A stretch of 62,998 nt of DNA, the filler included, from Reclinomonas americana ATCC 50394 (taxonomy: Eukaryota): the NCBI GenBank assembly GCA_048213135.1. It is 5 parts of 3 records of this genome, joined end to end, with 100 filler letters (N's around TTAATTAATTAA, not from the genome) between each part and the next. Parts side by side here need not be neighbours in the genome. Positions count along the whole stretch, not along the records: positions 28,009 to 49,660 come from PS015020.1; 4 more parts are not named here. One strand, 5' to 3'. Position 1 is the stretch's first letter, and every line of letters begins with the position of its first letter. The notes under the pieces are model-generated. The model had not been told where the DNA came from. It ran no database searches and was given only the letters and a program-made list of their open reading frames with translations. Both the position numbers and the translations under genes were made by a program. Positions 5,153 through 49,760 of the stretch are shown in pieces.

Positions 5153-7747
5153 TTACTCGAGCTGCACATCAACAAACAGCGCATGATGGTCCGACAGGCC
5201 GGTTCCGTCAATGATCTGGCGCGCGGTCGTGCCGACGATTCTCCAGGGACGAGGCGCGCGCACAAGGACATAGTCGATCTTGCGCGGCTCCTCGGCAGCG
5301 GGGAATGTGATGTCTGGAGGCCCCATGTCGTGGAAACCGGCCGTCTCCCACGCCTCCACCATGCGGGTGTAGCGATCGTCGGCTGGATGCGTGTTGAAGT
5401 CGCCGAGGAGCACCACTGCTGCAGTGGGTGGGATGGTGTCGTGGATGTGCGCGAGGAGTTCGTCCAACTGCGCCGCGCCCTGCGTGAAGCCCAGATGCGT
5501 GCACACGACCCACAACTGCGCGACATCGTCGGGTGGTGTAAGCTGCATGGCGATGGCGCTTCTCGTTTCAGCAGGTTCTGGACGCTGATCTCGTGCGTCG
5601 AAAAGCCACCGATGCACGCCAAAGGCTGGACGGCGACTGAGTATCGCATTGCCGTACTCGCCACCTGCGAGTGGAATCGACTCGACAAATTCGCCACGCC
5701 AAGGTCTCCCCAGCGCATCGGAAAGCAGAGTCGGCTGCTCCACTATCTGGCTTCGCGGTACGTTAACATCGACCTCTTGGAGGGCGACCACATCCGCTCC
5801 GCAATCGGCAATGCAGCGGGCGATCCTCTGCAGGTTGAAGTCGCACTCCTCTCCGTGTTTGATGTTGAACGTCATCACGCGGAGACGAACGGGCGGCAAT
5901 GGCGGCAAGTCGTCTCCCACCACGGCGGCGGCGGCAACCGCATCTGTCGGCTCGTCGATCGGCTCCTCGTCTGTGCCCATGATGGGTCCAGATGACGCAT
6001 CGTCGGCATCTGTCGGCTCCTCGTCTGTGCCCATGACGGGTGGTGGTGCTGCCGCTGATGAAGCTGCTGTTGGTGCAGCGGACAGAACAGACGATGTATC
6101 GCTGGCATCTGTCGCATCGAGATCCTCCAGCTCCACGACGACGTAGTCCGCCAACATTACTCGTGGTGCTGGCACCGGCAGTGCCAGTGGGGCGTCTGCA
6201 GGCACCGCCACCAGCTGTCCGTCGTCACTAATCACCAGGCGAGAGTGTTCAAAGTCGCGAGGAGCCTGGATCGGGTGGAAGAATCGGTGACTGAGGAGTC
6301 TCTCGATAGTCCATCGTTCGTGAGGCTCCTTGCGTAGACAGCATTTCAGTAGATTACGGAAGTCTTTGGGCCTGCAAAAAAAAGGTCAGTGCGCGCTCAC
6401 GTAGATTACTTCCACTTTCTCTACGCAACCACTGCTTTCGGCGCTGCAGCTTCGGCGGGGGATGGTTGAGAATTTTCCAGTCCAGCTGCGCACAACAATC
6501 AGCACAGTGCGATCTCTTGCGGGGCGAAGGCGGTGACAAGGCGTACGAACATCAACTGCCTTGTCGTGCATATCGTCTCCTACAACTCTGTACGGGGACT
6601 GCAAATCGGCCACCTCCAGCGCCAGGATACCTGCGTAGACAGCGTGTTGGCATATCGGCAGAAAGCATAGCCCTCCCCGCGCCGCTGAACACCAACCAAA
6701 TGCCCACACATCCTCCTCCGCATCCGCCACCCGCCCTGGGCTGTTCACAGCCTCCGGCGACAACCAGTACTGCAGCTCGCCGACATCTCTGGCTGGTGGC
6801 GTTGGTCCGTCGCTGAGGTACACGTGATGGCGCCGTGACCGCCAGAAGTCTGCACGGACACGCATGAGGGACTGCGGTGCAATGCGCAAGCAGCCGCACC
6901 ACTCACCCAGCCTGCAATCGTCCCCAGAAGCCGCGCAAAGCACACTACCGGCATGCAAGTGACGCATAAACAAGTCGCGCCGATGCAACTTGTCCAGTGC
7001 GGCCAACACCTGGCGCAGCATCTCGCGCACAGTGTCCACCGAGAACAAGGTCCTCTCCTGCAGCTGTCGCGCAATCTCCGCCGACAAGCTCGTGGCCTCG
7101 GGCAAACACGGCGAAGCCAACTTTACGGACAGTCAGGATCATTGTCGATGACCAACGACGACACACAGACGACGCACCCACAACTCGTTCTCGTTCTCCA
7201 CGGAGCGCGTGACGGAGCACAGCGGAAGCACATGCACGTCGGGGTGGATCCGTCTGTACGTCTCCAGCTGCGCCTCGACACACTCCACGAACGGTGTCTT
7301 CGCCGCGGGATCGAGCAGGAACCTGCGCAGCATGACAACACTCTCCGACTGCATGTCCCTGGCCATCACGACGCGACCATCTGCAGTCGCCGGCATAGCA
7401 GCAGTCTCCACCGGCTCGTACAGCTGCCACACATCGCCGATGCTCACTCGGCGTGACTCTGCGGAGGATGAGTTAAGAGAGAAAGAGAGAGAGAGGCTTG
7501 ATCATGACACGCACCACCACTGCCGCGAGAACTGCCCGCCTCCGGTGCATCCTTTTCGTCGCGTGTGAGGCAGGCGAGGGCGTGATCGTGCAGTTGTTGC
7601 ATGCGCATGTACCGACCGCATACGAAGCAGGCGCCCATCCTGTGTGTGTGAGTGAGTGAGGAAGAAGAGAGAGGGGTAAGAGGGGGGCGTGACAGGCAAC
7701 TCTTCGCTCTCGGGAATGCGTTCTGGTTCTCGTTCTGGCTCTGACAT
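5153..7747 (-). CDS. UBZ zinc finger - STE20-like pseudokinase - EEP (endonuclease/exonuclease/phosphatase) fusion protein
   Basis: CFVC..LHDHALAC (UBZ-like); kinase WLSPE, DVWAFG, PPPKL..W|PKDFRNLLKCCLRKEPHERWTIERLLSHRF; after intron 6429-6372 the frame runs without a stop into TFNIKHG, ALQEVD, YGNAILS, THL, GDFN, IDY, SDH. Confidence 0.8.
5940..6040. repeat. Coding internal direct repeat (P[VI]MGTDEEP x2) in the acidic linker
   Basis: cggctcctcgtctgtgcccatga occurs twice. Confidence 0.8.
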
Positions 7748-7995: not shown

Positions 7996-10900
7996 CTACA
8001 TCATCATGGCGTTGGCGGTGGACGCCGCGTGCAACAGTGGGCTGCGTGGCTGGCCGCCATTGGCAGCCGCCATCATTGTTGCTGTGGTTGGCGTCGAGTG
8101 TAGCAGCTGTGCCGTCGAGGGTGCGGAGAAAGTGGAGAAGGGCGAGCCGAAACCGACGCGGGGCGGAGACGGCAGCGGTGGCGGCAGCAGGAGCATTGGG
8201 TCGTAGCCTGCAATGGCGGCGTACCGAGCAGCCGGCGACGACGCGGCATTGGCGGCGGCCACGGCAGCAGCCAGCTGTTGAGAAATGGACGGCAAGAGCG
8301 GAGGCGACGAGGCGGTCTGCGAGTTCAACCCAAACGGCTTGGACAGGTGCGCTGAGGCAAACGAGTCGCCAATGGGTGGCAGCGGCGGCAACAACAACTC
8401 GCGCTCCACCTCCTCCGACTTGGTGGTGACAATGGTCGGCGGTGGCGCCCTCTTCTGTTGTTGTTGTTGTTGTTGTTGCTGCTGCTGCTGCTGAAGAGGC
8501 GTGGCAAAGTCTGGGACCTCGCGAGAACTGGAGAGCGACAGCAACGCCTGCAACGCCGAGTGCAACTCCGAGTCGAGCGGTCGGCGAAGGACCGAGTTGG
8601 GCGTGGCCGGCGAGAGCGCACTCCTGCTGCTGGCCGCATCGCTGTACGAGGCCGACGACGGATCCAAAAAGGGCAACTGACGCAAGTGCGACGGCACCAC
8701 GAATGTGGCCGACGACATGTCGGTATCGCCGCTGACCGAGCGCGGTCCGCGCATTGCGGCCGACCGCTGCTGCATCATCGAGGGCGACACACGACTCGTC
8801 AACGGCTTCTTGGCAGACACGGCGGCGCGACGACGCGACGACGCGACGCCACCGCTTCGGCCGCGCGCACCCGTGCCGTGTTGCACATACTCGCCGTCGC
8901 TGTCATGCTGCATGCCGGTAAAGTCCGTTGGATCGTCGTACTCGCCGGCGTCGGCAATCTCCTGCTCGTCCGTCACCATCATTGTGGGGCGGGAGCGCTG
9001 TCGCGCCGACTGCCGCAGGCTCGCCTGCGAGGCCGCCGGCACACCGTCCACGTACATGGAACCGTCGTCGTCGGGGAACGCATCGTCTTCGTCCTCCTCG
9101 TCTACCACACCCACATGGTCCAACAGATCAAGGCGCGAGACGTAGCGTCGCCGGCGACCACCGCCATTCGTCATGTTGTCGTCGTCGTCGTCACCGTCGC
9201 CGGGCACAGGAGACGATGCTGCGGTTCGTGATAGCCGCCGGCGGTGACGCGACGGTCGACTCACGTGTTGTGTCGGTGCATCGCCAAATGCCGCATGCGG
9301 AATGGGTGATGTGGCACCGGAAGCGGGAACCGACAGGGAGCCGGCGCGCTGGCAGGGGAAGTCAGCAACAAAACAGCAGAGTTTTAACGACGACAATGAC
9401 CCCACGAAAAGTGCGAGGTTCGATGAATATTGCAGGAAGGGGAAAGGAGATGGGGGAGAGGCATGACGATGATGTGCGACGGCATGCGAGCGCATGAAAG
9501 TGGAAAGCAAAAATCCGGCACGAGACCGATATGCAGGAGTGAAAAACGGCGAAGCAATAGAGAGACGCGGACATCGAGAGCCGATAACGTGGCACCAGCA
9601 AAGAATAAATAAAAAGACAGACAGACGCCGACGACGAAGAATAAAAAGACACAGCTCCGCGGAGAGGAGGCCGGCCATACGGTAGTGCGAGCCGATGACA
9701 AAACAAATACCGACACGTGGAAAAAAAAAGGGGAAAAGAAGAAGAACAAGGACCCCCACAGAAATATCCCGCGCGCCCACACACATATGCACGGCGAACG
9801 ACGCAACTGAGCGCTGCAGCGAAAGCATGTGCGGTGAGTGGGGAGGCGCGCCTCCCGCCACCGGCACTCCTTGCTCGTCATCATCATCGTCCTCGAAACG
9901 CGAGCTCCGGCCGCTTCCGCCGCTGCGATCGCGCTTCTCCTTGCGTCTCCGATTCTCAAACCACACTGCGTGTGCGTGGGGAGAGAGAGAATGGGCGTGC
10001 GTGTCCGATCAATATGCGAGAGACGATGACCAAATTAGGAAATGCTGAACGACGACGTACCACTGACAGAGCTGAAGGAGCGGGCAAACTCGTCGGCAAG
10101 CGCCTGCTTGCGCTTGCGATCCGGGTACGGGTTTGTGAGAAACTCCGCCTCCAGCGCGTGCAACTGCGCGACCGACAAAAACAGACAAAAAACAAGACGA
10201 ATCAGACAAAAAGGCGCACAAGCCGTGTGCTGCGTAGAGGAGAGAGTGTGGAGGGAGAAAGAGAGAGAGAGAGAGAGAGAGGAGAACGAATGTGGCCGCA
10301 TGCTCATGTGTGCGTGTGTGCGTGAACGGACACTCAAGATTCTTGCCGTCGGCGGGCATATCGATATGAACCCGAAAAACCAGCGTGCAGAAGACGCACA
10401 AGAAAGCAGACAGACAGACACAAAGATTAAGAGAGCGTGCGTGCAAAAGAATGAGGGAGGAGGGAGGCATGCAACCAGTGTGCCGCACATCTGTGTTTTT
10501 TGATATCTTTCAAGGGCACACGCTGAAAAAACAAACAGGAGTCATCAAAAACAAACAACATACAAACCCCACTCTCACCATAAAAGCAGCGGGGAGAGTG
10601 AGGCGCGCAGAGAGGAGAGAGTGAGAGCAAAATGCGAGGAAAAACAACTGATGCAGTCAAAAAAGAAAAAGACAGACATCGATATGAAGAAACGGACACA
10701 CAGTGCACACACACGCTCTCACACACACGCTCTCACACACAATCAGAGGAGGTGCAGGAGAGGAGCACAAGGAGAAGCAGCAGCAACAGGCAGAGACACA
10801 CACAAGAGAGAGAGAGTGAGTTTTGTGGGAGGTGCGAAAATGTCAGACCAAAAAAGCACACACGCGCTCACACACACACACCGACTCTCTCTCTCTCTGT

Positions 10901-12608: not shown

Positions 12609-13666
12609 ATGCGTGCGAGATCACGGTGCAGTCTCCTTCTCCCTCTTCTTCCCCTCCTCCTCTTGCTCGTCGTCTCTGTATCTGCCAAGGCGATCGACTT
12701 GGAGCAATGCGCAACTGACACGCCAGCCGACTTGCAACGTGCCATCCTGCGGGGCAGAGCACTCGAGGTGTTTGTGGACGGTGGCGCACGTCGCATCGAC
12801 TTGGAGGGTGCCGCAGACAGTCGACACGCAGGTGTGCCTGCGTGTGTGTCAATGCGCCAAGTGCATTGCATCATTCCTCACTCTCTCTGCCACCAGCGAT
12901 TCGTTTTGTCAGCTCTCTCGACGCCCACTCGCAGGCCGTCGGCGGTTGTGCGCTCCTCCAGCAGGTGCATCGCGTCATTCTGAGCACACTTCCGCCAGCG
13001 CCCACACCACTGGCCGTGCAGCGTGAGCAACACATGCGCGAGGTGCCGGCCAATGCTTATCCTTTCAGTCCGCCCGCCGACGAGCTGTTCGAGCACCCAT
13101 GGTTCCTGTGGTCGGGATTCCGCCTGCGCTTTGTCGATCATGTGCCGTTCAATAGCACGCACCGCATTCTGGAGATTGGCAGCTTCGAGGGCCGCTCGGC
13201 GTTGTGGATGATGCAGAACTCGCTGCCGACAACGGTGATGGACTGTGTGGATCTCGCGTCGGATGGCGCCGGCGAGATGGAAACGTTGTATAGTGAGGCC
13301 CCGCAGCGTTTCCGTCGTGCCCTGGCGCCGTACATGGAGCAAGGCCGCGTGCGGTACCACGTGATGCCGAGCTTCGATTTTCTGTTGCAGCTGCTGACCG
13401 CTTCGCCACCCACCGAGCCGTACGACTTTATCTACGTGGATGGCAGTCACCTCGCGCAGCACGTGTTGGAGGACGCCGTGCTGGCCTTCCGCCTACTGCG
13501 TCCCGGTGGCGTCATGGCATTCGACGATTACGAGTGGACAGCCGAGACGGAGCTGACCAAGACGCCACGACCGGCAATCGACGGCTTCCTGGCAGTGTAC
13601 GCCGATCAGGTGGAGCTGTTGGATATGGCCGGGCAGGTGTGGGTGCGACGGAAGCTGCAAGCGTAG
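12609..13666 (+). CDS. Secretory-pathway class I SAM methyltransferase (Methyltransf_24-like)
   Basis: Signal peptide; intron 12832-12896; LEIGSFEGRS, DFIYVDGSH and LRPGGVMAFDDY motifs. Confidence 0.88.
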
Positions 13667-14999: not shown

Positions 15000-16770
15000 A
15001 TGTTGAAGCTCCTGATCGTTGTCGTATGTACCCTGGCGGTGTGTACGAGCATGGCCTACGCCCAAGGTCAGTAACGGTCCACTGATACAAGCGATCTTCT
15101 TGTGATCTTTTGCCACTCACCTGTTGCGTGTTCAGGCGGAGACTGCTCCACCAACCCGGGCGCATGTAACCCCAATGTTGCACTGCGAACAAACGTGGCT
15201 TTCAATCATCTTGCTGTTCGGATAACTCACGTTTCGCTTCAACGTTGCAGGGTTCGTGCCAGAGTGGCAAGTGCAAGTGCGCGAACAACTGCTTCAATGT
15301 CGGCGGAGACAACTTTTGCGCCAAGTTGAGTGCAGCTGCCTGCATCGCTGCGTGTATTTCTTCTTGCTGCTCATTTTTCTGTGGTACGCAGCTGGACGGG
15401 CCCCTTCTGCACCTGCCACCCCGTCCGCACCTGCTCGAACCAAGGCGCCTGCAACGCCGCCGGTGCCTGCGAGTGCATCAGTGGCTTCTACGGCCCCAAC
15501 TGTGACAAGACTTGCGATCCGGCCGTCACCTGCAGCGGCCAAGGCTCATGCGCCGCCGCTGGTGGTTGCACGTGCAACTCCGACTACTATGGTGCCTCGT
15601 GCAACCAGTACTGCTCGGTGCGTGTGCACTCTGGTATATTCCGTCCGCTCTTTTCATAATCTCAACTCGTACTCTCCACCCCAGGCCTCGATCACGTGCA
15701 ACAGCCACGGCACGTGCGACTCGACTGGCTCGTGCGTGTGCTCCGGCAACTGGACCGGCGCCAACTGCGATCAGTGCAAGCCGAACTACTACGGCTCGTC
15801 GTGCGCGACCTACTGCCTGGCGTCGAGCACCTGCAGCGGCCACGGCTCCTGCAATGCTGTCACCGGCGCTTGCGTGTGCGACGGCACCTTCACTGGCGCC
15901 AGCTGCAACCAGTGCATCGCCGACTACTATGGAGCATCGTGTGACACGTACTGCGAGGCTTCCACCACGTGCAACGGGCATGGCTCGTGCAACGCCACCT
16001 CTGGCGCTTGCGTCTGCAGTGGCAACTTCACCGGAGCTGCTTGCGATCAGTGCATCGCGAACTACTTCGGCGCCAACTGCGACGTGTTTTGTGAGGCCTC
16101 CAGCACCTGCAATGGCCACGGCTCTTGCAACAGCAGTGGGCAGTGCGAGTGTTCGGGCAACTGGACTGGCTCCTCCTGCAACCAGTGCAAGAGCTACTAC
16201 TACGGCGCCAACTGCGACACGTACTGCAAGGCCTCCACCACCTGCAACGGAAACGGCACGTGCAACAGCAGCGACGGTAGCTGCGACTGCACCGGCAATT
16301 TCACCGGCAACAGCTGCAATGAGTGCATTGCCAACTACTACGGCTCCTCGTGCAGCACCTACTGCCTTGCCTCCTCCACCTGCAGCGGACGTGGCTCGTG
16401 CAATAGCAGCGATGGCAGCTGCGACTGCTTCTCCAACTGGTACGGTGCCTCATGCAACGTGTCGTGCGTTCCGCAGACCACGTGCTCGGGTCGCGGTCAG
16501 TGCGGCAGCAGCGGTGCCTGCGAGTGCAACGCAAACTTCTACGGCCCCTCATGCAACGTCAAGTGCACGACGTCGATTTGCTCCAACCACGGCACGTGCA
16601 CCACTAGCGGCACCTGCGATTGCACTGGTGGCTACACCGGCACGCTCTGCAACAACAACTGCCTGCGCGAGCTCACCTGCTCGAACCGCGGCAACTGCGA
16701 CGCCATGGGCAGCTGCGTGTGCGATTCCGGATTCACCGGCTCGAACTGCAGCCAAATTGATGTCTGCTAA
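15000..16770 (+). CDS. Secreted EGF/laminin-EGF (tenascin-like) repeat protein
   Basis: Signal peptide MLKLLIVVVCTLAVCTSMAYA; many C[NS]GHG[ST]C..G.C.C..[WF]TG..C repeats; no transmembrane segment seen. Confidence 0.9.
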
Positions 16771-26500: not shown

Positions 26501-27496
26501 TGGAAGTGGTGGTGCTGGAGGACGAAGTCGAACCGAAGAGTGCGCGTGGTCGCAACACGCGTCGCACTCCTGTCGCACCGCGTCCACCACCTTCTTCGTC
26601 TTCGGCACTCGCCGGCGGTGGCAGCAGCAGCGGCAGCAGCTCGCGACGAAAGCCGGTGGTTGGCGTTGTCGAGGATTCGTCGTCGGGTGGCGAGTCGTCT
26701 CCACCGCCCGCAGCGTCACGTGGACGTGTACGGGCTCGCCGAATCATCATCCCCACTGCGGCGGCGCCGTCTCCCGCCGCGGAGCACGACTCCGCCGGCG
26801 AGGATGAAGACGAGGTCGAGGAGGTGATTGTTGCGTCGTCCGCTGAAGGTGAAGATGGGCGGAGACAGAGCAGGACCACCAGGCGGTCCGCAGCCAATCA
26901 GTCCACGCCAACGACGCCCGCACAACCACGCAGCAGGTGGGAGGAAGTCTTGTTGTGGTTTCTTTGTTTTCCCTGTCCGCGTGCAGTTGCCTGATGGGCG
27001 ATGTGTAGGCCTCCGACTCCGGATCGCCTGCTGCCGTCGTCGCAATTGGACTACGGCGTGCGTCGTTCCACACGCTCGTCGGTGTCGTTTTCAGGTGCCG
27101 CCGCCGCCGGCACCGCGTCGGCTCACGAACTTGTACAGTATTCGCGACATGTGCCGCTGGAGAGGTGTGTGATTTGTGAGAGCGCTGTGCATAAGAGCAG
27201 TTGCTCACAAGCATGAGCTGTCCAGGGTTCTGAGTCGGGCGACAAAGAAGGGCGAATCGCTGCCGGCCGACCTCCTCGCCGCTCTCTCCTCGGCCGACGC
27301 CGACATGGCCACTGCACTGGCGTTGTCGAAGCAGCAGGCGGATGGCGGTGCTGTCACTCCTGAACCGTCGATACGCTCGACTCCCACGACGCGCTCAGGT
27401 CGCAAGCGACCACTCTCACCGGCCCCAACACCCCCCTCAACCAATGGCCATTCCTCGCCGGACCAGCCGGCTCGAAAACGCTCTCGTGTTCGATGA
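23600..27496 (+). CDS. Nuclear protein with two zf-4CXXC_R1/ADD-like zinc fingers and a C-terminal UIM
   Basis: GQCHVC..FRCS|RTSDPDGCRRTYCAPC..WECFHCQGRC; CYRC..LC..CGIGFCREC..WQCPEC; DADMATALALSKQQ; NLS-like RKRSRVR. Confidence 0.7.
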
Positions 27497-27908: not shown

Positions 27909-28008
27909 NNNNNNNNNNNNNNNNNNNNNNNNNNNNNNNNNNNNNNNNNNNNTTAATTAATTAANNNNNNNNNNNNNNNNNNNNNNNNNNNNNNNNNNNN
28001 NNNNNNNN
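27909..28008. other. Artificial scaffold linker N-TTAATTAATTAA-N (also at 49705, 55655 and 61308)
   Basis: Identical 12-mer with stops in all six frames embedded in equal N runs, four times. Confidence 0.95.
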
Positions 28009-28748: not shown

Positions 28749-29443
28749 AGCACGCCTCTTGCACTCGAGCATTGTCAATGCTGTGGTGATGAGTGGCTAC
28801 CTGATGAAGCGCGGCGGTCTGATCAAGACCTGGAAGCGGCGACTGTTTGTGCTGCTGTACGACCGCCTCATCTACATGCACGTCTCCGACAAGGACAAGT
28901 TCGAGGAGGAGGCCTCGCGCGACGGTGTGCGTGCCTTTGTGACGAAAAACCACAAGAAGATCCGCGGCGAGATCCTGGTCACCAACATGAAGAAGGTGCT
29001 CAATACGCCTGAGCGCGAAGCCTCCGAGTGCAAGACACCGTACGCATTCTACCTGGACTGCAAGAAGCGCCGCAACGAGGATCGCGTGTATGTCATCTGT
29101 GCCGAGAATCCCGAGGACCGCAACGAGTGGAGCTCCACCATCAAGGCAGTAATGGTGAGTGTGCACTCCCCTCATGACCTCCCTCCTCGTCCTTCTCCTC
29201 ACACCAGAATGTGTGCAGGATATGTGGGAGCTGGCGCTGCGTAACGAGGACAGGCGGCAGATTTACGAGTGGGATTCGACGAGCACCTTGCCGGTGTTGC
29301 AGCCAATCAAGGCTAGACCACGACAGTCGGTGGCCTCAATGGCACCGTCATCGGCCGGAAGCGACGACGGCAGCAGCGTGTCGGGCAGCGAGATTCCCGA
29401 CGGTCTCTCATCGATCGGATCGCCCACGGCAGTCTCACCATGA
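28749..29443 (+). CDS. PH domain protein (5' part lies in the gap)
   Basis: GYLMKRGGLIKTWKRRLFVL..YVICAENPEDRNEWSSTI. Confidence 0.88.
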
Positions 29444-29534
29444 CACAGCTACTTATTTGAACGACAGACACACAGCACAAGCAAATGAAACATAAGTGGA
29501 CCGCAGCATCGTTTGCGAGATATTTTTTCCTTCT

Positions 29535-31040
29535 TTACATCATCATTGGTGGCGGTGGCGGTGGTGGTGGTGGCGGAGGTGGAGGCGGTGGTGGTGGGTA
29601 ATCCATGTCGGGAGGCGGAGGTGGAGCCGGGAACCCATAGCCTGGCGCCGGTGCCGCGTGCTGCGGCTCCTCACGCATCTTGAAAAAGAGTTGCAGCGTA
29701 AACACGTGCTCGCTGCGATCCCAGTTGGTGTAGAAGCGGCCGTCGCCCTTGTCGATCTCCACGGCGGGAATCTTGAACGCCACTGTCTCGTACGGCTCGG
29801 CGGCGAACAGCAGGTACTGGTAGCGCTTGTCGGGCGGCTCCAGTCGCTGCTCAAACGACGACATCATGCGGTGGCGCGGGTGTGCCGCCTCGTCAATGTC
29901 GGGGTAGTAGATCTGGAAGAGGAGCGAGCGCTGATTCGTGTCGGGATCGCGCTGCTTGGTGACGCGGTAGCCGGGGCGGCCGATTTTGACGGTGCGGCGA
30001 ACGGGGCGGGCGGTTGATGTCATTGGCATGACCATGTTGGCCTGTGGGGGAGGGGATAGGGTGAGGAGAGGGAAAGGGGGGAAAGGGTGAGGCGAGGGAG
30101 AGAGGGGAGGGGAGGGGAGGGGAGGGGAGAGAGAGAGAGAGAAACGAAGCAAGGAAGCATGAACGGCGAATGCAAAGGCATTGGGAAGGCAGAATGACGC
30201 ACAGCAAGTCAGACAACAGTGGAGGGGTCAAGCAAGTCAGGAGCAGATAGCAGAGATCAAGAAAGCGACAGAACGATGAACACTGAATGCACGAGTCCAT
30301 TCAGACGGCAGAATGACGCAAGGAGGCTGAGGCCCAGAGCAGATCACAGAAACGACACGGGGAGACAGAAAAGCAACACGAGCGTGCAGAGCTGAGAAGA
30401 TGATTGGAGAAGGCAGAAGGAATGTATATGCAGGCAGGACGAGAGGGAGATCAGGGGAGAAAGCAAGGCAGACAACGAAGGGCAACTGCGCCGGAGTCCT
30501 GCAAGAGCCTCACCTGCTTCTCCTTGGCCTCCATCGCCTGCCGTCTGGCCAAATTCAACTGATGTCTCTTTCCCTGCGTGTGCGCCAGATAGTTTCCCTC
30601 ATTCGTGTGCAACGTCAGGCACAGCTTGCACTCGTACTGGCCGAGGTGATTGCGCATAAAGTACGGATCCTTGGTCAAATCAATCGTCTCCAACGCCAAT
30701 CGCCGCAATCGCTCGCGCCGGTCCACATTGGCGTCGCTCTTGGAGAGCAGCCCACCGGCTCCGGGCTTACTCCTGCACACAAACGCAGATCAGAGACAAG
30801 TGCGGCAAACACGACATGTCCTTTCTCGCGCGCTCTTTCTCTTGACTCAGTCTTGTTATTTGCATACGTTATCATCAACAGTGTGATTATGACTAACGAG
30901 ATTCCATTTGTAGCACAAGTCATCATTGTGTGCGAGAGAGAGAGAGCGCGGGCAGGAGATGTTCAACATGACCCATGCACACCACAAAACAAACACACAC
31001 ACACAAAATAAACTCACCCAAAGTCGCGGTCCAGTGACAT
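29535..31040 (-). CDS. SF3A2: Splicing factor 3A subunit 2 (Prp11/SF3a66)
   Basis: RRERLRRLALETIDL, YECKLCLTLHTNEGNYLAHTQGKRH, KIGRPGYRVTKQRD, AAEPYETVAFKIP, poly-Pro tail; first exon MSLDRDFG. Confidence 0.96.
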
Positions 31041-31189
31041 GATGCACGCCTACACACAGCTGCAACGTGAGCAAGTTGAGGGAGTGGCAAGCGCGCGAAC
31101 ATGAACGCAACTTTTTGTGTAACAGATGAACGGAATGGGCAGTGGATTTGCTTCGTGTCTTTGCGCGTGTGTACGTGCGTGCTGCGACC
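31041..31189. promoter_or_regulatory. Probable bidirectional promoter between SF3A2 and CDC5L
   Basis: Only 149 bp separate the divergent ATGs. Confidence 0.65.
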
Positions 31190-34929
<3,740 letters not shown>

Positions 34930-35073
34930 TCGCCCGGATGAAAACAAGGGTGGGCATTGAAAAGAATGAATTGGACGAGGTGACGGAGTGTCGTATTCGC
35001 ACATGAGACAAATATTTGCGGAAACTGACAGGGAGAGCACTCACACTCTCCTTCTTCGTCATCTCTGTCTCAC

Positions 35074-38000
35074 ATGGTGGTGTACCCTCGCAACGCGTTC
35101 CCTCGCGGCCGTCTCGGCGAGGACGGCGATGGATGCGAACTTGACAGTGGAGACATTGCATGGATGCTGGTGAGCGCAAGAGAGACAGACAGAGAGAAAG
35201 GGAGAGTGCGCACACACGCACATGCGGATCTCCTTTTTCTCACTCGTGCTCTCTCTCAGGTATCGACTGCGTTTGTGTACCTGCAGTCACCAGGTGAGCA
35301 TGCCGCGCACTCATTCACACACTCTGTGTCATTGCGTGTGTCTCATCACAATGCTGCGCAGCATGCGGACTCACACAAGCGGGAGTCATTCGTCGCAAGA
35401 ACAGGTGCGACACACGCACACCTTCTCTCTCTATCAGAGAAGGACCTCACTCTTCTTGTTTCATCGCAGTCTGAGCATGCTCATGCAGTCGCTGACGGGA
35501 GTCGTGATCGGGGGACTCATGTGGATCCTGTGCGTGCGACGACTCTCCTCACACACACACACACACACTCTCTCCTGTTCTCTCCCTCTCACTCCATCCT
35601 CTTCCTCCTCTTCCACAGCGTTGGATACACACTGACATTCGGTGAAGACTGCGGTGGTTTCATCGGCAACCTACGACACGTTGTCCTCAATGACAGGTTC
35701 ATGACACTCCCTCCAACTCACACCCACCCACCCACCCCACTCACGCTTTCGTGGTTGTGATAATCATCATTCATCATCAGCTATCGTTGCTATCCGGCTG
35801 GTGAGCACCACTGAGCAGTCGCATTTGATACTGAAAGCGAGTGTGCACTGACAATCTGCTTGCCAGCACCGACCATCCCCGGTATCTTGTTTGCCGTGTT
35901 CCAGATGCAGTTTGCGGCCATGGTGCCTGTGCTGTGCACCGGTGCTTGGGTGCGTGACCGGCTTGCTTCCGCGATCTGCTGCTGCTGCTGTTGCTGACGA
36001 ATCGATGCAGGCCGAGAAGCTGCACTTCAAGGCATTCATTCTCTTCTGCGTGCTCTTCCCACTCTTTGTGTATTATCCCATTGCACACTGGATTTGGGGT
36101 GGCGGTGCGTTGTATATACATTTGACGCGGCTGCTACTGCTTCTTCTTTGATGTGACTGACACACGGGCTGTGCGCAGGTTTTCTGGCTGGGTGAGTTGC
36201 AAATGAACATTGTATGTTTCGTGCAGACCTGTTCGTGCCAGTTTGTTGACTTGCCTTCTGTAGTCTTGGCGTGCTTGACTTTGCCGGGGGCCTGACGTTG
36301 CGTATTCCCGTGTCTCACTCTCGCCCCCATCACCGCTCACTCCGATCTCCCACACCAGTATTCACACGGTGTCCGGCACGGCGGCCCTCGTTGTCTCACT
36401 GGTGCTGGAACGACGCCCCGAGATGGACGAAGTGAGCACCGGCGCTCACAACATTCCTGTGCGTGGCCTCCTACGTCTCTCACACTGCTGTATTGTCTCT
36501 CTCATGTCAGCTGTTATTCTGCACAGCTCACTGGTCGGATTCCTGCGTTTCTGGTGCTTCTTCTGTTTGCACGTCGCTCACTCACTCGCTTGCACACCAC
36601 TCAGTGATTGGTGGAGCACTTACTCACATGGGCTGGTTCGCCTTCAACGCTGGTGAGTGCGACGATATCGGCTGAATCGTTCACATTGGCACCTCACACG
36701 TGTAACATGTATGTAGGCTCTGCCTTCGGTGCTAACTACGTCGCCGCCCATGCCGCCATCAACACGCACATTGGCGCAGTGACCTCCGGACTGGTGTGGC
36801 TGATCATTGCCTACTTCCGGTATGTACACTCACTCGTTGATCGTGTACAACTTACTTGCCTGTGTCGTGTGCATGACTCCACTTGTCTGCATGCAGCACT
36901 GATTACTTCCACTTGACCGAGATCATCAACGGTTTGTGCGCGCCTTGCTTTCCGTCTTTGCTCACTGTCCCCTGAACTCCTTCATACACAGGCTCATTGG
37001 CTGGTCTTGCTGGCATTACGCCTGCTGCCGGTTACATTACGCACGGATCGGCACTTGGCGTCTCCGTGATTGTCGGCGTGGCCTCGTACTTTTCCGTGTT
37101 CTTCCTTCGTGATCGGTAATTCCGACAGCTGAATTCGTCATCTGTGCATGATGTCTCGCACTCCCCCACCTTCCTGCAACACATATCAGCATTCAGATCG
37201 ACGACGCCCTCGACGTCACCTCCCTGCAGGTGTGTGTGCATGTGATGTGTACACACATTGGTTTCGCAACTAATACAATCGCACATCGCAGGCCACACCT
37301 GGCCTGATTGGCACCATTATTGGAGTCGGCCTGTTTGCCACCAGCGATGTCAACACGGCCGTACCGTCACACCAGGAGGGTGCAATCTATGGTGGCAACT
37401 TTGTGCTGATGGCCAAGCAGGTGAGCGCGCAAGGAACATGTTTGCAGTCTTCGCTTCTAACGCTCCATGATGCAGCTGGTCGGCGCACTTGCCACAGTCG
37501 GATGGACGGTTTTGTGGACGTATATCATCATGTGCGTTGTCGCATTCATGTCGACATATGCACACTGCGCTCACTGAGTGTTGTTGTGCATTCGTGCAGG
37601 AAATTCGTCAACTGGCTCGTGCCACAGCCGACAGTGGAGGAGATGATTGTCGGCCTCGATAAGACCACCCATGGCGCATCAGCGGTAAGTGTTCTTGCCG
37701 TCTTTGTATTCCCTACTGTTGCACTCCTCTTGACCTCCACGTTTGTGTCTCACTCTCCAGTATGACGAAGAGGTTCGCTGGCTGTGAGAGACCGTTGGTA
37801 TTCTTGTGATGCACATGTTGATCTTGCTTGGTGATGATGCACACAGGATACGATGGATGCAAACGCTCGCCAGCAAAAGTTGTGCGAGGCTGCAGCACGC
37901 GGTGACCTCGACCAGGTCATGTCGCTGATCAAGCGTGGTGCGAATCCACTGGTTGGCGACTACGACGGACGCACGGTTTGTGTATGCATCACTGTTGACT

Positions 38001-39482
38001 CTGCTCTGTTGCTGACGACTATTGTGCAGGCATACCACTTGGCAGCCAGTGAAGGCAAGCAGCACATTCTCGAGTACCTGCTGACGCTGCCGAAGGCCAA
38101 CATCAACGTGAGCGACCGCTTCGGCAACACACCCCTCTCCGATGCCATGCGCCACGAGCACACGCAGGTGTCCGACTTTTTGCTGGCACATGGCGCTGAG
38201 GTGCAAACAAAGAAACTGGTGAGTGGTGGTGCATGCGATGCAAGTTGCAAATGGCTGCAGTGTCCCCTGACGTGATTGTTTTGTGCTCACAGGGCGAGGA
38301 ACTGTGCAAGGCTGGTGCTGAGGTGTGTTGTATTACAACTGCATTGTCTGCTGGGTAATTGCAATTCACTCACGATGGGTGTATCTCAAAGGGTGACCTC
38401 GAGGCTCTGAAACGCATCGCTCGAGTAGCGCCCTTGTATCGTTCGTCTTTGCGTTGCTGATCTTGTGCTGAAAAGTCTTTCAAAGCTCACTGCGTGCTGT
38501 TTGTGTCGCACAGTGCCCGATTATGATGGTTTGGATCACAAGTACTTGTTGCCAGTTGTCATCGACTGTTCCTGACTCTGTTCGTCTACCGTGACAGGTC
38601 GCACTGCTCTCCATCTGGCTGCGTGCGTCCTTGTTGCTCTCCCTCACGCAGCAGCAGTCTTATGGCCTCACTCCTTGCTTCGTGCAGTTCCAATGGTCAC
38701 GAGGAGTGTGTCGTCTTCCTGCTCAATGGTTTGTCATTGCCGCTGCTGTACCTGCGTGATGACTGTTCTCTCAACTGCACAACGTACAGCCGGTGTTGAC
38801 CCCACTGTCAAGGATCGCTGGGGCGGAACACCTGCCGATGATGCCAGTCGCCAGAACCACACAGCCATTGTGCGCATTCTGCAACGAGCTGTGAAGCGCA
38901 TGGCCGAGAATTTGTGCCATGCTGCCTCTGTTGGTTGCGTGGCAGTGGACACTGTTTTCCCTCTGACATGTCACGATACTCATCATTATTGCGCAGGTGA
39001 CAAGGAGGAGCTGGCAAGGTTCATCGAGGCCGGTATTGACAGGTACTGCATGCAGTGTGTGGCATTCGTGGATCGCACCACTTATCGAATGCGCACGACA
39101 GCAACATGCAGGACTACGATGGTCGCTCGGCATTGCATCTGGCCGCCAGCAACGGCCACGCCGAATGTTGCGTTCACAACATGCATGCTAGTCACGACGC
39201 TGTCGGCATCCGTCACTGATTATGCACAACTGCAGGTGTGCGTTACCTCATCAAGTTCTGCGATGTCAACATTCGTGACCGCTGGGGAAACACACCGCTG
39301 GCCGATGCCATCCGTCATCGCCACGAGGATGTGGCAGAGGTGCGTGGCTGCGTGTATGTGTGCAGTGATGAGAAGGGAAGGAGTGGTGATTGAACCAATG
39401 TGGCGTAAACAGATCTTGCGTGCCAACGGCGGTACTGACGCACTGCCGCATGCCGACCACCACGGGCACACTGTGGTGGAGA
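35074..39482 (+). CDS. Ammonium transporter (Amt/Mep) fused to C-terminal ankyrin repeats; probably continues 3'
   Basis: GDIAWML, FQMQFA, AHWIWGGG, DFAGGLTIH, GWFAFNAGS, LAGLAGITP, DDALDV, GLDKTTHGASA|Y; continues in frame into repeated DYDGRTA.HLAA..G and DR[FW]G.TP ankyrin motifs. Confidence 0.88.
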
Positions 39483-39556
39483 GTTGCGTGACATAGTGCA
39501 GCAGTCGAGGCTTTGTGGTTGCCTCTTATCTATGAGGATTTCTTTTGTGCAAACAG

Positions 39557-41645
39557 TGGGCATGCTTGGCGACGACGAAGACATCAGATATCAAGACACC
39601 GACGAGGATTCGGCGAGGCGACCGGTACTGCAGGGAGCGAGCAGCAGTTCACGGGCTCCCGTACGGCGTGGGCCCGGAGCGTCGTCAGCTGCAGGTGCAG
39701 GGCATGCTGCTCACGGCAAGCATGAGCGATTTGGCATGGAGTTGCGATGCGCAGCGTGCACTCTTCGTCCGTCGATGTTTCTCATCATGTGCATGACAGC
39801 TTGCTGGATCCGCGAACACGAGAAAAGCTCAGAAAGCAGCCGCGTAGACCCGCAGACTCGGAGGAGGCTTGAGTCGTTCGTGGCAATAGAAGTTCTCGTC
39901 TCTCGTATGTCAAAGTTTGTTCGGTGTGTTGTGTCGCCTCTTCATTATCACTTCCATGCCAAGCGTCGATGGTGCGGAGAATGCAGATGATGGTGCGTGT
40001 ACGTGTTGCACCAACGGCACGTCGCTCAGCACCACGTGCGCGTGGAGATTGCGTACGTGGTGGAGACAAGAATCTCCGTCGGAAAAATCTCGAATTCGTG
40101 GATACACGGCACGCGCGAGCGTTTGTTGTTCCAGCATCATCATATTCCTTCCATTGCTGTGGTGGAGCGGAGACTACCACCCCTCATCGCGCCAACCCCC
40201 TCCCATCCATGTGAGTTGTCAGTGCGAGATAACGTGATTGTGTTTGACTCATTTGAAGAAGATCACAGCCCTACTATTTGTCATCCACCATGGGATCGTG
40301 CTCATCGCGTCAGAAGGCACTACGCGAGGCCAATCGTCGCGGAAGCAGCGGAAGTGCAAGTGACGAATTGGACTCTGTGCTGCACGGGTGAGCGTGTGTG
40401 CGGAACGAAGCAAAGCACTAGTGCACTGCTTCATTTTGCCTCCTTGATTTCATCGTCACTGTCCGCAGACCGGATGGTGCCTGGGGCATTCTGACTGGCG
40501 GCACGACATGGCACGACGCTCGGCAGGACATGATCAAGCGCCTCAGCACCTTCCTGAGCGGCGATCAAGTGTCGCGCGTGCTGGCCAGCATCGGTTCGCT
40601 GTTGTCCAAGCAAATGCAACCGTCCACATACATCAACTCTGACATTCCTCCTTGCACTCGTGCAGATCAAGCGCACAGCACCATCATTTCGGCCGAGCGC
40701 ACCTCCATGTATCGGGAGATCTTTGACCAAGTCGACAAGGTTCGGCGATGGTAGTTGTGGAGAAGGAGAGACTGCAGTTTTGCTCACTCGCGGTCGCAGG
40801 ACGGCGACGAGGTGTTGAACCGGCAAGAGACGAAAGAGTTTCTCGACTCCACCCACGATCGTTGCGTCAGTTGTCTGTATTCAATGGCCTGCGCGTGCCT
40901 CATGATGTGAGTGCAGAATTCATCCAGGAGCTCGAGAAGCAGGGTGTGTCGGTCAAGCTGCCCACGCCAACGACGGCGCAGGCATGTTCTGCACCTCGCC
41001 TCGCTCAACTCGGTGTGTTCTCGTCTCACTCCTTTCATGCAGATTGGTCGCATGGTGTCGCACGCCGTACCCGGTGCCGAGGGCAATCCGCGCGCCTTTA
41101 TCACGTTCGACATGTTCCGCCTCATCGCTCGCCGCGTGGTCGAAACGTCGCTGTGGCTCGGCACCATCGCCGTCGAGGTCCGTGAACGTGCCAAGCGCGC
41201 CCATGAGCTCCCGCTCTCCGCCACCCTCGCTGTCGGCTGCACCATGCGCGCCCTCTCCGGTCAGCCCCTGCAAATGCCACCTGCCGCCGCTGGCACGACG
41301 ACGACGACCGCCACCGCTGCAAGTTGCTCGCCGCCTCCTCCGATGACCGCCAAGACCTCCAGCACGCCTCCGCGCGTGCCCCTGGCCTCGCGTCAGCACG
41401 TGGCCGGCCGCCGTCGACACAGTGGCGGCAGCGCCCTGCTGGCCTCGTGGGCCTCGAGCGGCGGACTGACAGCGGGCGAGCTGACGCGCTCCTCGCTGTC
41501 GTTCACCGAGCTGCATTCACGCGCGCGCAGCAGTGGTGCGGCCCTCCGTGGGCGCTGCGGTGGAGCGGCTCCGCTGCGTACCATGCACGCAGAGGACTTT
41601 GTGAATGGCGGTCGGCGCTGCCATCGGCCGACGCTGAGCACGTGA
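39557..41645 (+). CDS. Probable C-terminal continuation of the Amt-ankyrin gene (or separate gene) with an EF-hand-like motif
   Basis: YREIFDQVDK|DGDEVLNRQETKEFL and ITFDMF; middle exon phases not resolved. Confidence 0.45.
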
Positions 41646-42329
41646 TCATGAAGAGGTGATGGGCGGGAAGAAACTGCGACGAATGAAATTCCGCTCGATG
41701 TAATCAGACACTTTTTCTGAAGTGAGTGGAGTGGGCGTGTGCGTGTGCAGCAATGGGATAGCAGAGGAGAGGAAGAGGGGCGGTGTGCACATGTGATTGA
41801 GCGCAGAAATGTGATTTGTCTTTTCTGTGACACGTGTCTTTTGCGTGTGTGTGGGCTTGTTTGTGTGTGGGGTTTGTCGTGCGAGTGTGTCTGTGATAGT
41901 GATGGAGTGTTGAGCGAGTTGTGTCTGTGTGTGCGTGTATGTGGGTGANNNNNNNNNNNNNNNNNNNNNNNNNNNNNNNNNNNNNNNNNNNNNNNNNNNN
42001 NNNNNNNNNNNNNNNNNNNNNNNNNNNNNNNNNNNNNNNNNNNNNNNNNNNNNNNNNNNNNNNNNNNNNNNNNNNNNNNNNNNNNNNNNNNNNNNNNNNN
42101 NNNNNNNNNNNNNNNNNNNNNNNNNNNNNNNNNNNNNNNNNNNNNNNNNNNNNNNNNNNNNNNNNNNNNNNNNNNNNNNNNNNNNNNNNNNNNNNNNNNN
42201 NNNNNNNNNNNNNNNNNNNNNNNNNNNNNNNNNNNNNNNNNNNNNNNNNNNNNNNNNNNNNNNNNNNNNNNNNNNNNNNNNNNNNNNNNNNNNNNNNNNN
42301 NNNNNNNNNNNNNNNNNNNNNNNNNNNNN

Positions 42330-49646: not shown

Positions 49647-49760
49647 TACGTGTGTGTGTGNNNNNNNNNNNNNNNNNNNNNNNNNNNNNNNNNNNNNNNN
49701 NNNNTTAATTAATTAANNNNNNNNNNNNNNNNNNNNNNNNNNNNNNNNNNNNNNNNNNNN

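What the first reader, a model, noticed from the sequence alone, without database searches (positions are those of the whole stretch)
35074..39482. Eukaryotic ammonium transporter fused to ankyrin repeats: candidate ammonium receptor
Seen: the Amt C-terminal motif GLD..HG..AY splices in frame (|YDEE|DTMDANARQQKLCEAAARGD) into three blocks of ankyrin repeats, possibly followed by an EF-hand region. Known: prokaryotic Amt proteins fused to kinase or cyclase domains act as sensors. This DYDGRT/DRWG ankyrin type occurs in glutaminases and plant Shaker K+ channels. I do not recall a characterised Amt-ankyrin protein. Inference: a transceptor or scaffold linking ammonium to signalling.
Basis: partly seen in the sequence, partly recalled or inferred. 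Interest (0 to 1): 0.72.

Follow-up and report, generated by a model that had tools for sequence, protein, structure and literature searches.

The report
Ammonium transporter fused to ankyrin repeats
A eukaryotic gene appears to join an ammonium-transporter membrane module, which lacks one of its two hallmark pore histidines, to a tail of about nine ankyrin repeats, so it may sense or anchor rather than simply import ammonium; no transcript data could be found to prove the join.

Summary
A 32-exon model on the + strand (35074-39496, all GT-AG, introns 54-142 nt) gives a 736-residue protein. Residues 12-428 align almost without gaps to Capsaspora AmtA (42% identity, E 1e-108). They are followed after about 14 residues by three 90-residue ankyrin blocks.

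The joining intron (37773-37846, 74 nt, in frame) has donor and acceptor scores at the median of the gene's 30 other introns. I estimate that such a frame-keeping pseudo-intron would arise by chance in about 0.3% of cases. No transcript evidence could be obtained. A stop (37785) and an ATG (37853) leave a two-gene reading open, about 20%.

New here: the second pore histidine (AmtB H318) is glutamine, while F107, W148, D160, H168, F215 and S219 are kept. One metagenomic relative has the same change at the same exon end.

The bacterial sensor-Amt N1/N2 signature is absent. The "EF-hand region" belongs to a separate downstream gene (ATG 40290).

All four relatives with complete C-termini lack ankyrin, and four paper searches found no description of this architecture. 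Verdict: probably a real, rare Amt-ankyrin fusion, a new variant of the fused sensor/transceptor Amts. Function is inferred.

The parts
35074..35169 (+). Amt exon 1, with the start codon at 35074
   Evidence: First ATG of the open frame. The N-terminus aligns with the Capsaspora AmtA N-terminus.
35260..35293 (+). Amt exon 2
   Evidence: GT-AG borders, in frame, aligned to P0043.
35362..35404 (+). Amt exon 3
35470..35529 (+). Amt exon 4
35619..35696 (+). Amt exon 5
35781..35800 (+). Amt exon 6 (20-nt micro-exon)
   Evidence: Its residues align with P0043 without a gap penalty.
35867..35949 (+). Amt exon 7 (holds the F107 equivalent)
36011..36104 (+). Amt exon 8 (holds the W148 equivalent)
   Evidence: PF00909 positions 107-136, E 5.5e-6.
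36179..36191 (+). Amt exon 9 (13-nt micro-exon)
36264..36296 (+). Amt exon 10 (holds the D160 equivalent)
36359..36462 (+). Amt exon 11 (first pore His, H168 equivalent, kept)
   Evidence: PF00909 positions 156-191.
36605..36652 (+). Amt exon 12 (W212 and F215 equivalents)
36717..36819 (+). Amt exon 13 (S219 equivalent)
36897..36931 (+). Amt exon 14
36992..37115 (+). Amt exon 15
   Evidence: PF00909 positions 259-295; 61% identical to Capsaspora AmtA.
37190..37229 (+). Amt exon 16. Its last codon (CAG, 37227-37229) is Gln at the position of the second pore His (AmtB H318).
   Evidence: Alignment. The donor at 37230 scores 9.8. The His-restoring alternative donor at 37242 scores 3.2 and would leave a 50-nt intron.
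37292..37420 (+). Amt exon 17
   Evidence: Alone it has no Pfam or PDB hit.
37476..37531 (+). Amt exon 18
37600..37684 (+). Amt exon 19 (conserved C-terminal regulatory motif; donor GTAAGT at 37685)
37761..37772 (+). Exon 20, a 12-nt micro-exon that supplies the conserved Tyr of the Amt C-terminal motif
   Evidence: Its Tyr-Asp aligns with P0043, and its Tyr with AmtB.
37773..37846 (+). Junction intron (74 nt, phase 0 to phase 0) that joins the Amt and ankyrin parts. If it is retained, the frame stops at TGA 37785-37787.
   Evidence: Donor score 6.3 (rank 13 of 30) and acceptor score 4.9 (rank 15 of 30).
37853..37855 (+). In-frame ATG, the possible start of a separate ankyrin gene under the rival reading
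37847..37975 (+). Ankyrin exon 21 (linker and start of block A)
   Evidence: Weak Ank hits, E 0.02-0.04.
38030..38218 (+). Ankyrin exon 22 (rest of block A)
   Evidence: Ank E 2.4e-10; PDB E 2.8e-43.
38293..38322 (+). Ankyrin exon 23 (start of block B)
38392..38440 (+). Ankyrin exon 24
38514..38528 (+). Ankyrin exon 25 (15-nt micro-exon)
38598..38622 (+). Ankyrin exon 26
38688..38728 (+). Ankyrin exon 27
38790..38933 (+). Ankyrin exon 28 (end of block B, start of block C)
   Evidence: Ank_5 E 0.06, weak; block alignment.
38997..39042 (+). Ankyrin exon 29
39102..39166 (+). Ankyrin exon 30
   Evidence: Ank_4 E 9.4e-5.
39236..39339 (+). Ankyrin exon 31
   Evidence: Ank E 1.2e-4; PDB hits.
39413..39496 (+). 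Last recognised exon, 32. Its end is uncertain: either the stop TAG at 39494-39496, or a donor at 39432 leading to a possible acidic tail exon from 39557.
   Evidence: No Pfam hit in the candidate tail.

Best explanation
This is one gene. It encodes an AmtB/Mep-type ammonium-transporter module: 11 helices, C-terminus in the cytoplasm by homology. The conserved cytoplasmic C-terminal regulatory motif runs, after about 14 residues, straight into three tandem blocks of ankyrin repeats, about nine repeats in all.

The outer ammonium recruitment site, the Phe gate, the conserved Asp and the first pore His are intact. The second pore His is Gln. Canonical deprotonation-coupled transport is therefore probably altered.

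The most likely working is as follows. The trimeric membrane module binds ammonium and at least partly admits it. The resulting movement of the C-terminal region is passed to, or gated by, proteins docked on the built-in ankyrin platform. That makes it a transceptor or regulated channel rather than a bulk uptake carrier.

Shown: the exon structure, the domain identities and the residue states. Inferred: that the junction intron is spliced, the topology, and all function.
For: The 32-exon model has GT-AG at all 31 introns and an open frame of 736 residues. The Amt part aligns with Capsaspora AmtA at E 1e-108 and 42% identity.

The junction intron is 74 nt against a median of 68.5 nt. Its donor score is 6.3 and its acceptor score 4.9, ranks 13 and 15 of 30 among the gene's own introns. 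Only 2.9% of 306 decoy GT sites score as high.

In 7,356 nt of Pfam-supported long exons nearby, only 18 donors and 35 acceptors reach these scores. From these rates I estimate that a chance frame-keeping pseudo-intron bridging a stop and an ATG 65 nt apart has a probability of about 0.003. This is my own calculation.

Both halves share an extreme micro-exon style: median exon 58 nt, with exons of 12, 13, 15 and 20 nt. Neighbouring genes have exons of 500-1600 nt.

F107, W148, D160, H168, W212, F215 and S219 are kept, and H318 is Gln. One metagenome fragment, P0044 (58% identity over 81 residues), has the same residue at the same exon end.

From papers. The only common natural twin-His variant is Glu at the first His (PMC3647058, Discussion passage). 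Twin-His changes switch AmtB and Mep2 towards unspecific channel activity and impair Mep2 signalling (PMC9040831, abstract). Amt modules fused to C-terminal transducers act as ammonium receptors in bacteria (PMC11152129, passages).
Against: I have no transcript evidence. If the 74-nt intron is not removed, the Amt frame stops after four more codons (TGA 37785). An in-frame ATG lies two codons after the acceptor.

Distinct genes can lie very close here: the CDC5 stop and the Amt ATG are 144 nt apart.

All four relatives with complete C-termini (P0043, P0045, P0050, P0052) have tails without ankyrin, and none of the 8 Amt hits carries an Ank Pfam domain.

The N1/N2 receptor signature is absent. 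Ankyrin repeats are not a catalytic transducer, so a signalling output is conjecture.

A weak alternative donor at 37242 (score 3.2, 50-nt intron) would add four residues ending in His.
Confidence: 0.55

Rival explanations
1. The gene is fused, but the ankyrin tail only anchors, targets or clusters a working ammonium transporter or channel at a membrane domain. This would be the cis version of ankyrin binding to Rh ammonium transporters, with no signalling role.
For: Ankyrin-G and ankyrin-R bind the C-terminal tails of RhBG and RhAG and are needed for their targeting, stability and activity (PMC9467607, passages). All substrate-site residues except the second His are kept. Single-His variants of AmtB still supported growth on ammonia (PMC3647058, passage).
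Against: Nine repeats in three near-identical blocks, with no spectrin-binding or death domain, are not a canonical ankyrin. The natural loss of the second His, shared with a relative, suggests altered conduction rather than ordinary uptake.
Confidence: 0.25
2. These are two separate genes or cistrons. The Amt ends at TGA 37785-37787, and an independent ankyrin protein starts at ATG 37853. The AG at 37845-46 would then be unused, or would serve as a trans-splice or 5'-end site.
For: A stop and an ATG are in place. A spacing of 144 nt between CDC5 and Amt shows that very short spacers exist. All four relatives with complete C-termini have no ankyrin. Bacterial AmtB ends two residues after the same Tyr.
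Against: The 65 nt would have to hold a 3' end, a promoter and a 5' UTR. The donor and acceptor scores, intron length and frame match true introns. Both halves share a micro-exon structure that neighbouring genes lack. The spacer lacks the A/T-rich character of the CDC5-Amt spacer. No spliced-leader RNA or any other Rfam family was found in the window, which is weak evidence.
Confidence: 0.2

Closest known systems
Capsaspora owczarzaki AmtA (P0043) and the AmtA-like transporters of amoebae and holozoans
   Same: It is the closest full-length sequence found: 42% identity, colinear over the whole Amt domain and including the C-terminal motif. An Amoeba proteus protein is among the nearest fragments.
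   Different: AmtA keeps both pore histidines and has an 85-residue tail without ankyrin.
Bacterial Amt-like ammonium receptors Ks-Amt5 (Amt + histidine kinase) and Sd-Amt1 (Amt + HAMP + GGDEF)
   Same: An Amt module is fused at its C-terminus to a soluble cytoplasmic module, and the outer selectivity features are preserved (PMC11152129, passages).
   Different: Those proteins keep the twin-His pair, carry the N1/N2 ligand signature and end in enzymatic transducers. Here the second His is Gln, the signature is absent, the fused module is a protein-binding repeat, and the host is a eukaryote.
Fungal Mep2 transceptor
   Same: It is a eukaryotic Mep/AmtB-type protein whose signalling is tied to its transport mechanism and its C-terminal region (PMC9040831, abstract).
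   Different: Mep2 has no fused domain and needs an intact twin-His pair for signalling. Here the second His is naturally replaced.
Rh glycoproteins (RhBG, RhAG) bound by ankyrin-G or ankyrin-1
   Same: Ankyrin repeats engage the cytoplasmic C-terminal tail of a member of the Amt/Mep/Rh superfamily and control its anchorage and activity (PMC9467607, passages).
   Different: That interaction is in trans, with a 24-repeat ankyrin and an Rh-type protein. Here the repeats are in cis, number about nine, and sit on an Amt-type protein.
Drosophila Amt, an olfactory ammonia receptor
   Same: It is an animal Amt used for sensing. I know it only from a mention in PMC11152129 (passage).
   Different: That paper places it in the N1/N2-signature cluster and mentions no ankyrin tail for it. 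I did not examine it here.

Membership tests
Amt/Mep/Rh superfamily (Pfam PF00909) | Sequence match to the family profile over the whole 11-helix domain | tested here: met
   Exon hits to PF00909 are colinear (3 of 9 pieces). The spliced model aligns with AmtA at E 1e-108 and aligns with E. coli AmtB end to end.
Amt/Mep/Rh superfamily (Pfam PF00909) | Outer recruitment site and Phe gate (AmtB F107, W148, S219, F215) and D160 | tested here: met
   All are identical in the MAFFT alignment with AmtB from NC_000913.
Amt/Mep/Rh superfamily (Pfam PF00909) | Twin-His pair in the pore (AmtB H168 and H318) | tested here: not met
   The H168 equivalent is kept. The H318 equivalent is Gln (model residue 336, codon 37227-37229). 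It is His in 4 of 4 other eukaryote-type relatives aligned at that column, and in AmtB. An alternative donor that would restore a His scores poorly.
Amt/Mep/Rh superfamily (Pfam PF00909) | Conserved cytoplasmic C-terminal regulatory motif ending in Ala-Tyr | tested here: met
   It aligns with AmtB and AmtA. The Tyr comes from micro-exon 37761-37772.
Amt-like ammonium receptors (AmR: Ks-Amt5, Sd-Amt1) | N1/N2 ligand signature QX6EX15NX2D[F/T]X54-60TX2[S/T] (PMC11152129) | tested here: not met
   A regular-expression search found neither the full signature nor its sub-parts in the model or in P0043.
Amt-like ammonium receptors (AmR: Ks-Amt5, Sd-Amt1) | C-terminally fused cytoplasmic transducer module | tested here: inconclusive
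   A fused C-terminal module is predicted from splice signals. It is an ankyrin scaffold, not an enzyme, and the fusion is not confirmed by transcripts.
Amt-like ammonium receptors (AmR: Ks-Amt5, Sd-Amt1) | Binds ammonium without completing translocation | not testable with these tools
   This needs electrophysiology or uptake assays.
Ankyrin-repeat proteins (PF00023 / PF12796) | Tandem 33-residue ankyrin repeats | tested here: met
   Five of 6 exon pieces hit Ank families, the best at E 2.4e-10. PDB DARPin and ankyrin-1 hits reach E 2.8e-43. Three blocks are 41-46% identical to each other.
Canonical ankyrins (ankyrin-R/B/G) | 24 repeats followed by ZU5-UPA spectrin-binding and death domains | tested here: not met
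   There are about nine repeats, and no further Pfam domain in the exons or ORFs up to 40290.
   The best 60 PDB hits for two exons are DARPins, ankyrin-1, tankyrase and the like. No glutaminase or K+ channel is among the hits shown.

The most novel reading that the evidence does not exclude
This is a eukaryotic ammonium receptor. The Amt module has given up canonical conduction (Gln at the second pore His). It reports ammonium occupancy through its C-terminal region to partners docked on the fused ankyrin platform. One possible partner is the neighbouring N-myristoylation-type EF-hand protein (gene from 40290), which would couple ammonium to calcium signalling. That would parallel the plant calcium-sensor/kinase control of AMT1 and of the ankyrin-bearing AKT1 channel; this parallel is recalled and was not tested here.
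Probability: 0.12. Interest if true: 0.8.

Novelty: new variant of a known kind. Interest (0 to 1): 0.55.

Why it matters
Amt modules re-used as receptors are so far characterised only in bacteria, where they are fused to kinase or cyclase modules. In eukaryotes, sensing by Mep2 or by Drosophila Amt lacks a defined output device.

A natural eukaryotic Amt with a built-in protein-docking domain would give a tractable handle: the tail's partners can be pulled down, which addresses how Amt proteins signal. The natural replacement of the second twin-His residue bears on the open question of what that pair does for selectivity and signalling.

The fusion also mirrors, in cis, the ankyrin-Rh tail interaction of mammals. 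That suggests ankyrin repeats and the Amt/Rh C-terminal tail are a recurrent functional pairing.

Tried and rejected
Transcript evidence. The look-up of sequencing runs on 35000-40400 listed no run (none was listed, and no RNA holder was listed), so read laying could not be used. No whole genome is held.

Homologue searches:
- Ankyrin exon 38048-38212, longer proteins: 42 generic ankyrin proteins, 0 of 42 with PF00909.
- Amt exon 37292-37420: no hit.
- Amt exon 36994-37113: 1 hit, Capsaspora AmtA.
- Representative library with the same exon: 9 hits at E <= 0.001. Eight are Amt fragments or proteins and one is a methyltransferase false positive; none has Ank.

An alignment of exon fragments to P0043, meant as a profile query, was scrambled by MAFFT and I dropped it.

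Scans of sequence collections:
- A metagenome scan with a degenerate pattern for the ten residues around the Gln gave 5 loci. None of the 5 was similar to the model by tblastn, so they are chance matches.
- The search for related loci with P0044 in genome contigs and in viral contigs found no relative.

The ESM Atlas look-ups gave only generic Ank and generic Amt clusters. The earlier-findings look-ups gave nothing relevant.

The introns are not an introner family: only two 13-nt chance matches between introns. Codon usage did not discriminate one gene from two. Rfam found 0 families in the window, and there is one tRNA-Arg, at 26510-26588. The minus-strand ORFs under the gene have no Pfam hit.

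The supplement of PMC11152129 that could be read is only a coordinate file. Its PDF supplement and Fig. 7B, which list the domain organisations of 18,924 Amt sequences, could not be seen and may list Amt-ankyrin proteins.
Full report
WHAT IS THERE

I printed the region in three frames and worked out an exon model by eye. I then assembled it from coordinates in a script.
- 32 exons on the + strand, from the ATG at 35074 to the stop at 39494-39496.
- 31 introns, all GT-AG, 54-142 nt long (median about 68).
- An uninterrupted frame of 736 residues.
- Median exon length 58 nt, with micro-exons of 12, 13, 15 and 20 nt.

The region lies in a gap-free stretch, 28749-41948. The window as a whole is a chain of contigs joined by N runs with an all-frame stop spacer.

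THE AMT MODULE

Three of 9 single-exon translations hit Pfam PF00909 at colinear profile positions. The other six were too short or too divergent.

The spliced model aligns over residues 12-428 with Capsaspora owczarzaki AmtA (P0043): 190/451 identities, 15 gap positions, E 1e-108. This alignment validates even the 20-nt micro-exon. It also validates the 12-nt micro-exon 37761-37772, whose Tyr-Asp aligns with AmtA.

I aligned the model with E. coli AmtB, translated from NC_000913, and with four other relatives.
- The equivalents of F107, W148, D160, H168, W212, F215 and S219 are all identical.
- The equivalent of H318, the second residue of the twin-His pair, is Gln (model residue 336, codon 37227-37229, the last codon of exon 16).
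- The four eukaryote-type relatives that cover this column all have His there, as does AmtB.

The donor used, at 37230, is one of the strongest in the gene (score 9.8). A frame-keeping alternative donor at 37242 would add four residues ending in His. It scores 3.2 and would leave a 50-nt intron, shorter than any other in the gene. I treat it as at most a minor isoform.

An 83-residue fragment from a metagenome assembly, P0044, is 58% identical over 81 residues. It has the same Gln, and its open frame runs on into what looks like an intron at exactly the same point. The substitution is therefore shared by at least one other organism and is not a private defect.

THE JUNCTION

Exon 19 ends at 37684 in phase 0 (donor GTAAGT). 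The micro-exon 37761-37772 follows (donor GTTCGC). The next acceptor is the AG at 37845-46, and exon 21 starts at 37847 in phase 0.

I built position weight matrices from the other 30 introns.
- The junction donor scores 6.3. The true donors, scored leave-one-out, have mean 5.6, and this one ranks 13 of 30.
- The junction acceptor scores 4.9, against a mean of 4.9; it ranks 15 of 30.
- Only 2.9% of 306 other GT sites and 15% of 146 other AG sites in the gene region score as high.

As a control I scanned 7,356 nt of nearby long ORFs that carry Pfam domains. Only 18 donors and 35 acceptors reach these scores, giving 10 pseudo-intron pairs, or 1.4 per kb. From those rates I estimate the chance of the observed arrangement arising without a real intron. 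It requires a donor in the about 25 nt before the stop, an acceptor in the about 30 nt before the ATG, and a kept frame. The estimate is about 0.003; this is my own arithmetic, not a tool result.

Against the fusion:
- If the intron is retained, the frame stops after four codons (TGA 37785-37787).
- An ATG lies two codons after the acceptor (37853).
- Two clearly separate genes can be very close here. The CDC5/Cef1 homologue (Myb and Myb_Cef domains) stops at 34927-34929, only 144 nt before the Amt ATG.

A further point for one gene is structural. Both halves share the extreme micro-exon structure. The neighbouring CDC5, Delta-like, methyltransferase and Exo_endo_phos genes have exons of 500-1600 nt. 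The introns themselves share no sequence family.

THE ANKYRIN TAIL

Five of 6 exon pieces hit ankyrin families, the best at E 2.4e-10, with two of the five weak. PDB hits are designed ankyrin proteins and ankyrin-1.

The tail consists of three blocks of about 90 residues, 41-46% identical to each other. Each block has a capping helix pair and two full repeats. The first block begins about 14 residues after the conserved Tyr of the Amt C-terminal motif. By homology with AmtB the Amt C-terminus is cytoplasmic, which is established knowledge of the family. The repeats would therefore hang directly under the trimer.

Whether these repeats are specifically of the glutaminase or Shaker-channel type could not be decided, because the hits were generic.

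THE 3' END AND THE 'EF-HAND'

The last recognised exon starts at 39413. It either runs to the stop at 39494, or it is spliced at 39432 to a possible acidic tail exon from 39557. No Pfam domain was found in that candidate tail.

The EF-hand-like loop lies in a different gene. That gene starts at 40290 with a Met-Gly, Cys-containing N-terminus of the myristoylation type. The EF-hand call rests on inspection only, because single exons gave no Pfam hit.

RELATIVES AND LITERATURE

All the large searches are listed under Tried and rejected. In short, I found no fused homologue.
- 0 of 42 ankyrin hits carry PF00909.
- 0 of 8 Amt hits carry Ank.
- All four relatives with complete C-termini have ankyrin-free tails.

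These results do not test the fusion here, but they show that the architecture is not common among the nearest detectable relatives.

I ran four paper searches: 'ammonium transporter' + 'ankyrin' (134 papers, 25 listed; I saw the listing only), and three narrower term sets. None gave a paper describing an Amt-ankyrin protein. The one paper that held both Pfam names reports separate enrichments only (PMC5177918, passages).

What I took from papers:
- PMC11152129 (passages) describes Ks-Amt5 and Sd-Amt1 as Amt-like receptors. It proposes an N1/N2 signature, and it says fused domains also occur outside that cluster and in eukaryotes, without naming them in the text I could read. The signature is absent here and in AmtA.
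- PMC9040831 (abstract) reports that twin-His variation switches the mechanism towards an unspecific channel and impairs Mep2 signalling.
- PMC9467607 (passages) summarises ankyrin-G and ankyrin-R binding to the C-terminal tails of Rh ammonium transporters.

HOW IT PROBABLY WORKS

Shown: the exon structure, the two domain identities, the kept and lost residues, and the short linker.

Inferred: the junction is spliced, about 0.75-0.8 on the evidence above. The membrane module still recruits ammonium at its outer site but no longer conducts in the canonical twin-His way. The ankyrin platform, fixed to the mobile C-terminal region, docks partner proteins. Ammonium occupancy would then be read out, or the pore gated, through those partners.

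I rank this transceptor/regulated-channel reading first (0.55, including the fusion). A purely anchoring tail comes second (0.25) and two separate genes third (0.2).

NOVELTY AND VERDICT

The protein fails one defining feature of canonical Amt proteins, the second His, and one of the bacterial receptor class, the N1/N2 signature. It is best called a new variant of the known kind 'Amt module with a fused cytoplasmic module'. The module type is new, the host is a eukaryote, and the pore change is rare.

Interest is moderate to high for the Amt field. It is tempered by three things: no transcript or homologue support, an unidentified organism, and domain-architecture databases that could not be consulted here.

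Noticed in passing
window 37227-37229 (and P0044): Natural Gln at the second twin-His position of an otherwise intact Amt. A metagenomic fragment shares it, with the same exon end. A paper passage calls Glu at the first His the only common natural variant.
   Followed up: partly
window 35074-39496 versus 5156-6385, 12719-13663, 15226-16767, 31724-34929: The Amt-ankyrin gene has 31 introns and a median exon of 58 nt, while neighbouring genes have exons of 500-1600 nt. The introns share no sequence family. This local intron density is unexplained.
   Followed up: partly
window 15226-16767 (+): A single open frame of 514 residues with a DSL domain (E 1.1e-31) and many EGF domains, that is, a Delta/Serrate-like ligand. 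With a homeodomain ORF at 10038-10541 (-), this points to an animal or close unicellular relative as the source.
   Followed up: no
window 40290-41350 (+): A separate gene with a myristoylation-type Met-Gly start and an EF-hand-like loop split by an intron at about 40740-40799, lying next to the ankyrin tail. A functional link is pure conjecture.
   Followed up: partly
window 34927-35074: Only 144 nt lie between the stop of the CDC5/Cef1 homologue and the Amt start codon, so intergenic spacers here can be very short.
   Followed up: partly
window 27909-28008, 49661-49760, 55611-55710, 61264-61363: Four identical joins of 44 N, a 12-base all-frame stop spacer and 44 N. The window is an artificial chain of contigs, so gene order across these points is not reliable.
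   Followed up: yes
window 37230-37291: A GT-repeat at the start of intron 16 offers a weak in-frame alternative donor at 37242. It would insert four residues ending in His just where the pore His is missing.
   Followed up: yes
window 26510-26588 (-): A tRNA-Arg (anticodon GCG) predicted by ARAGORN. It is the only RNA gene found in the window.
   Followed up: no
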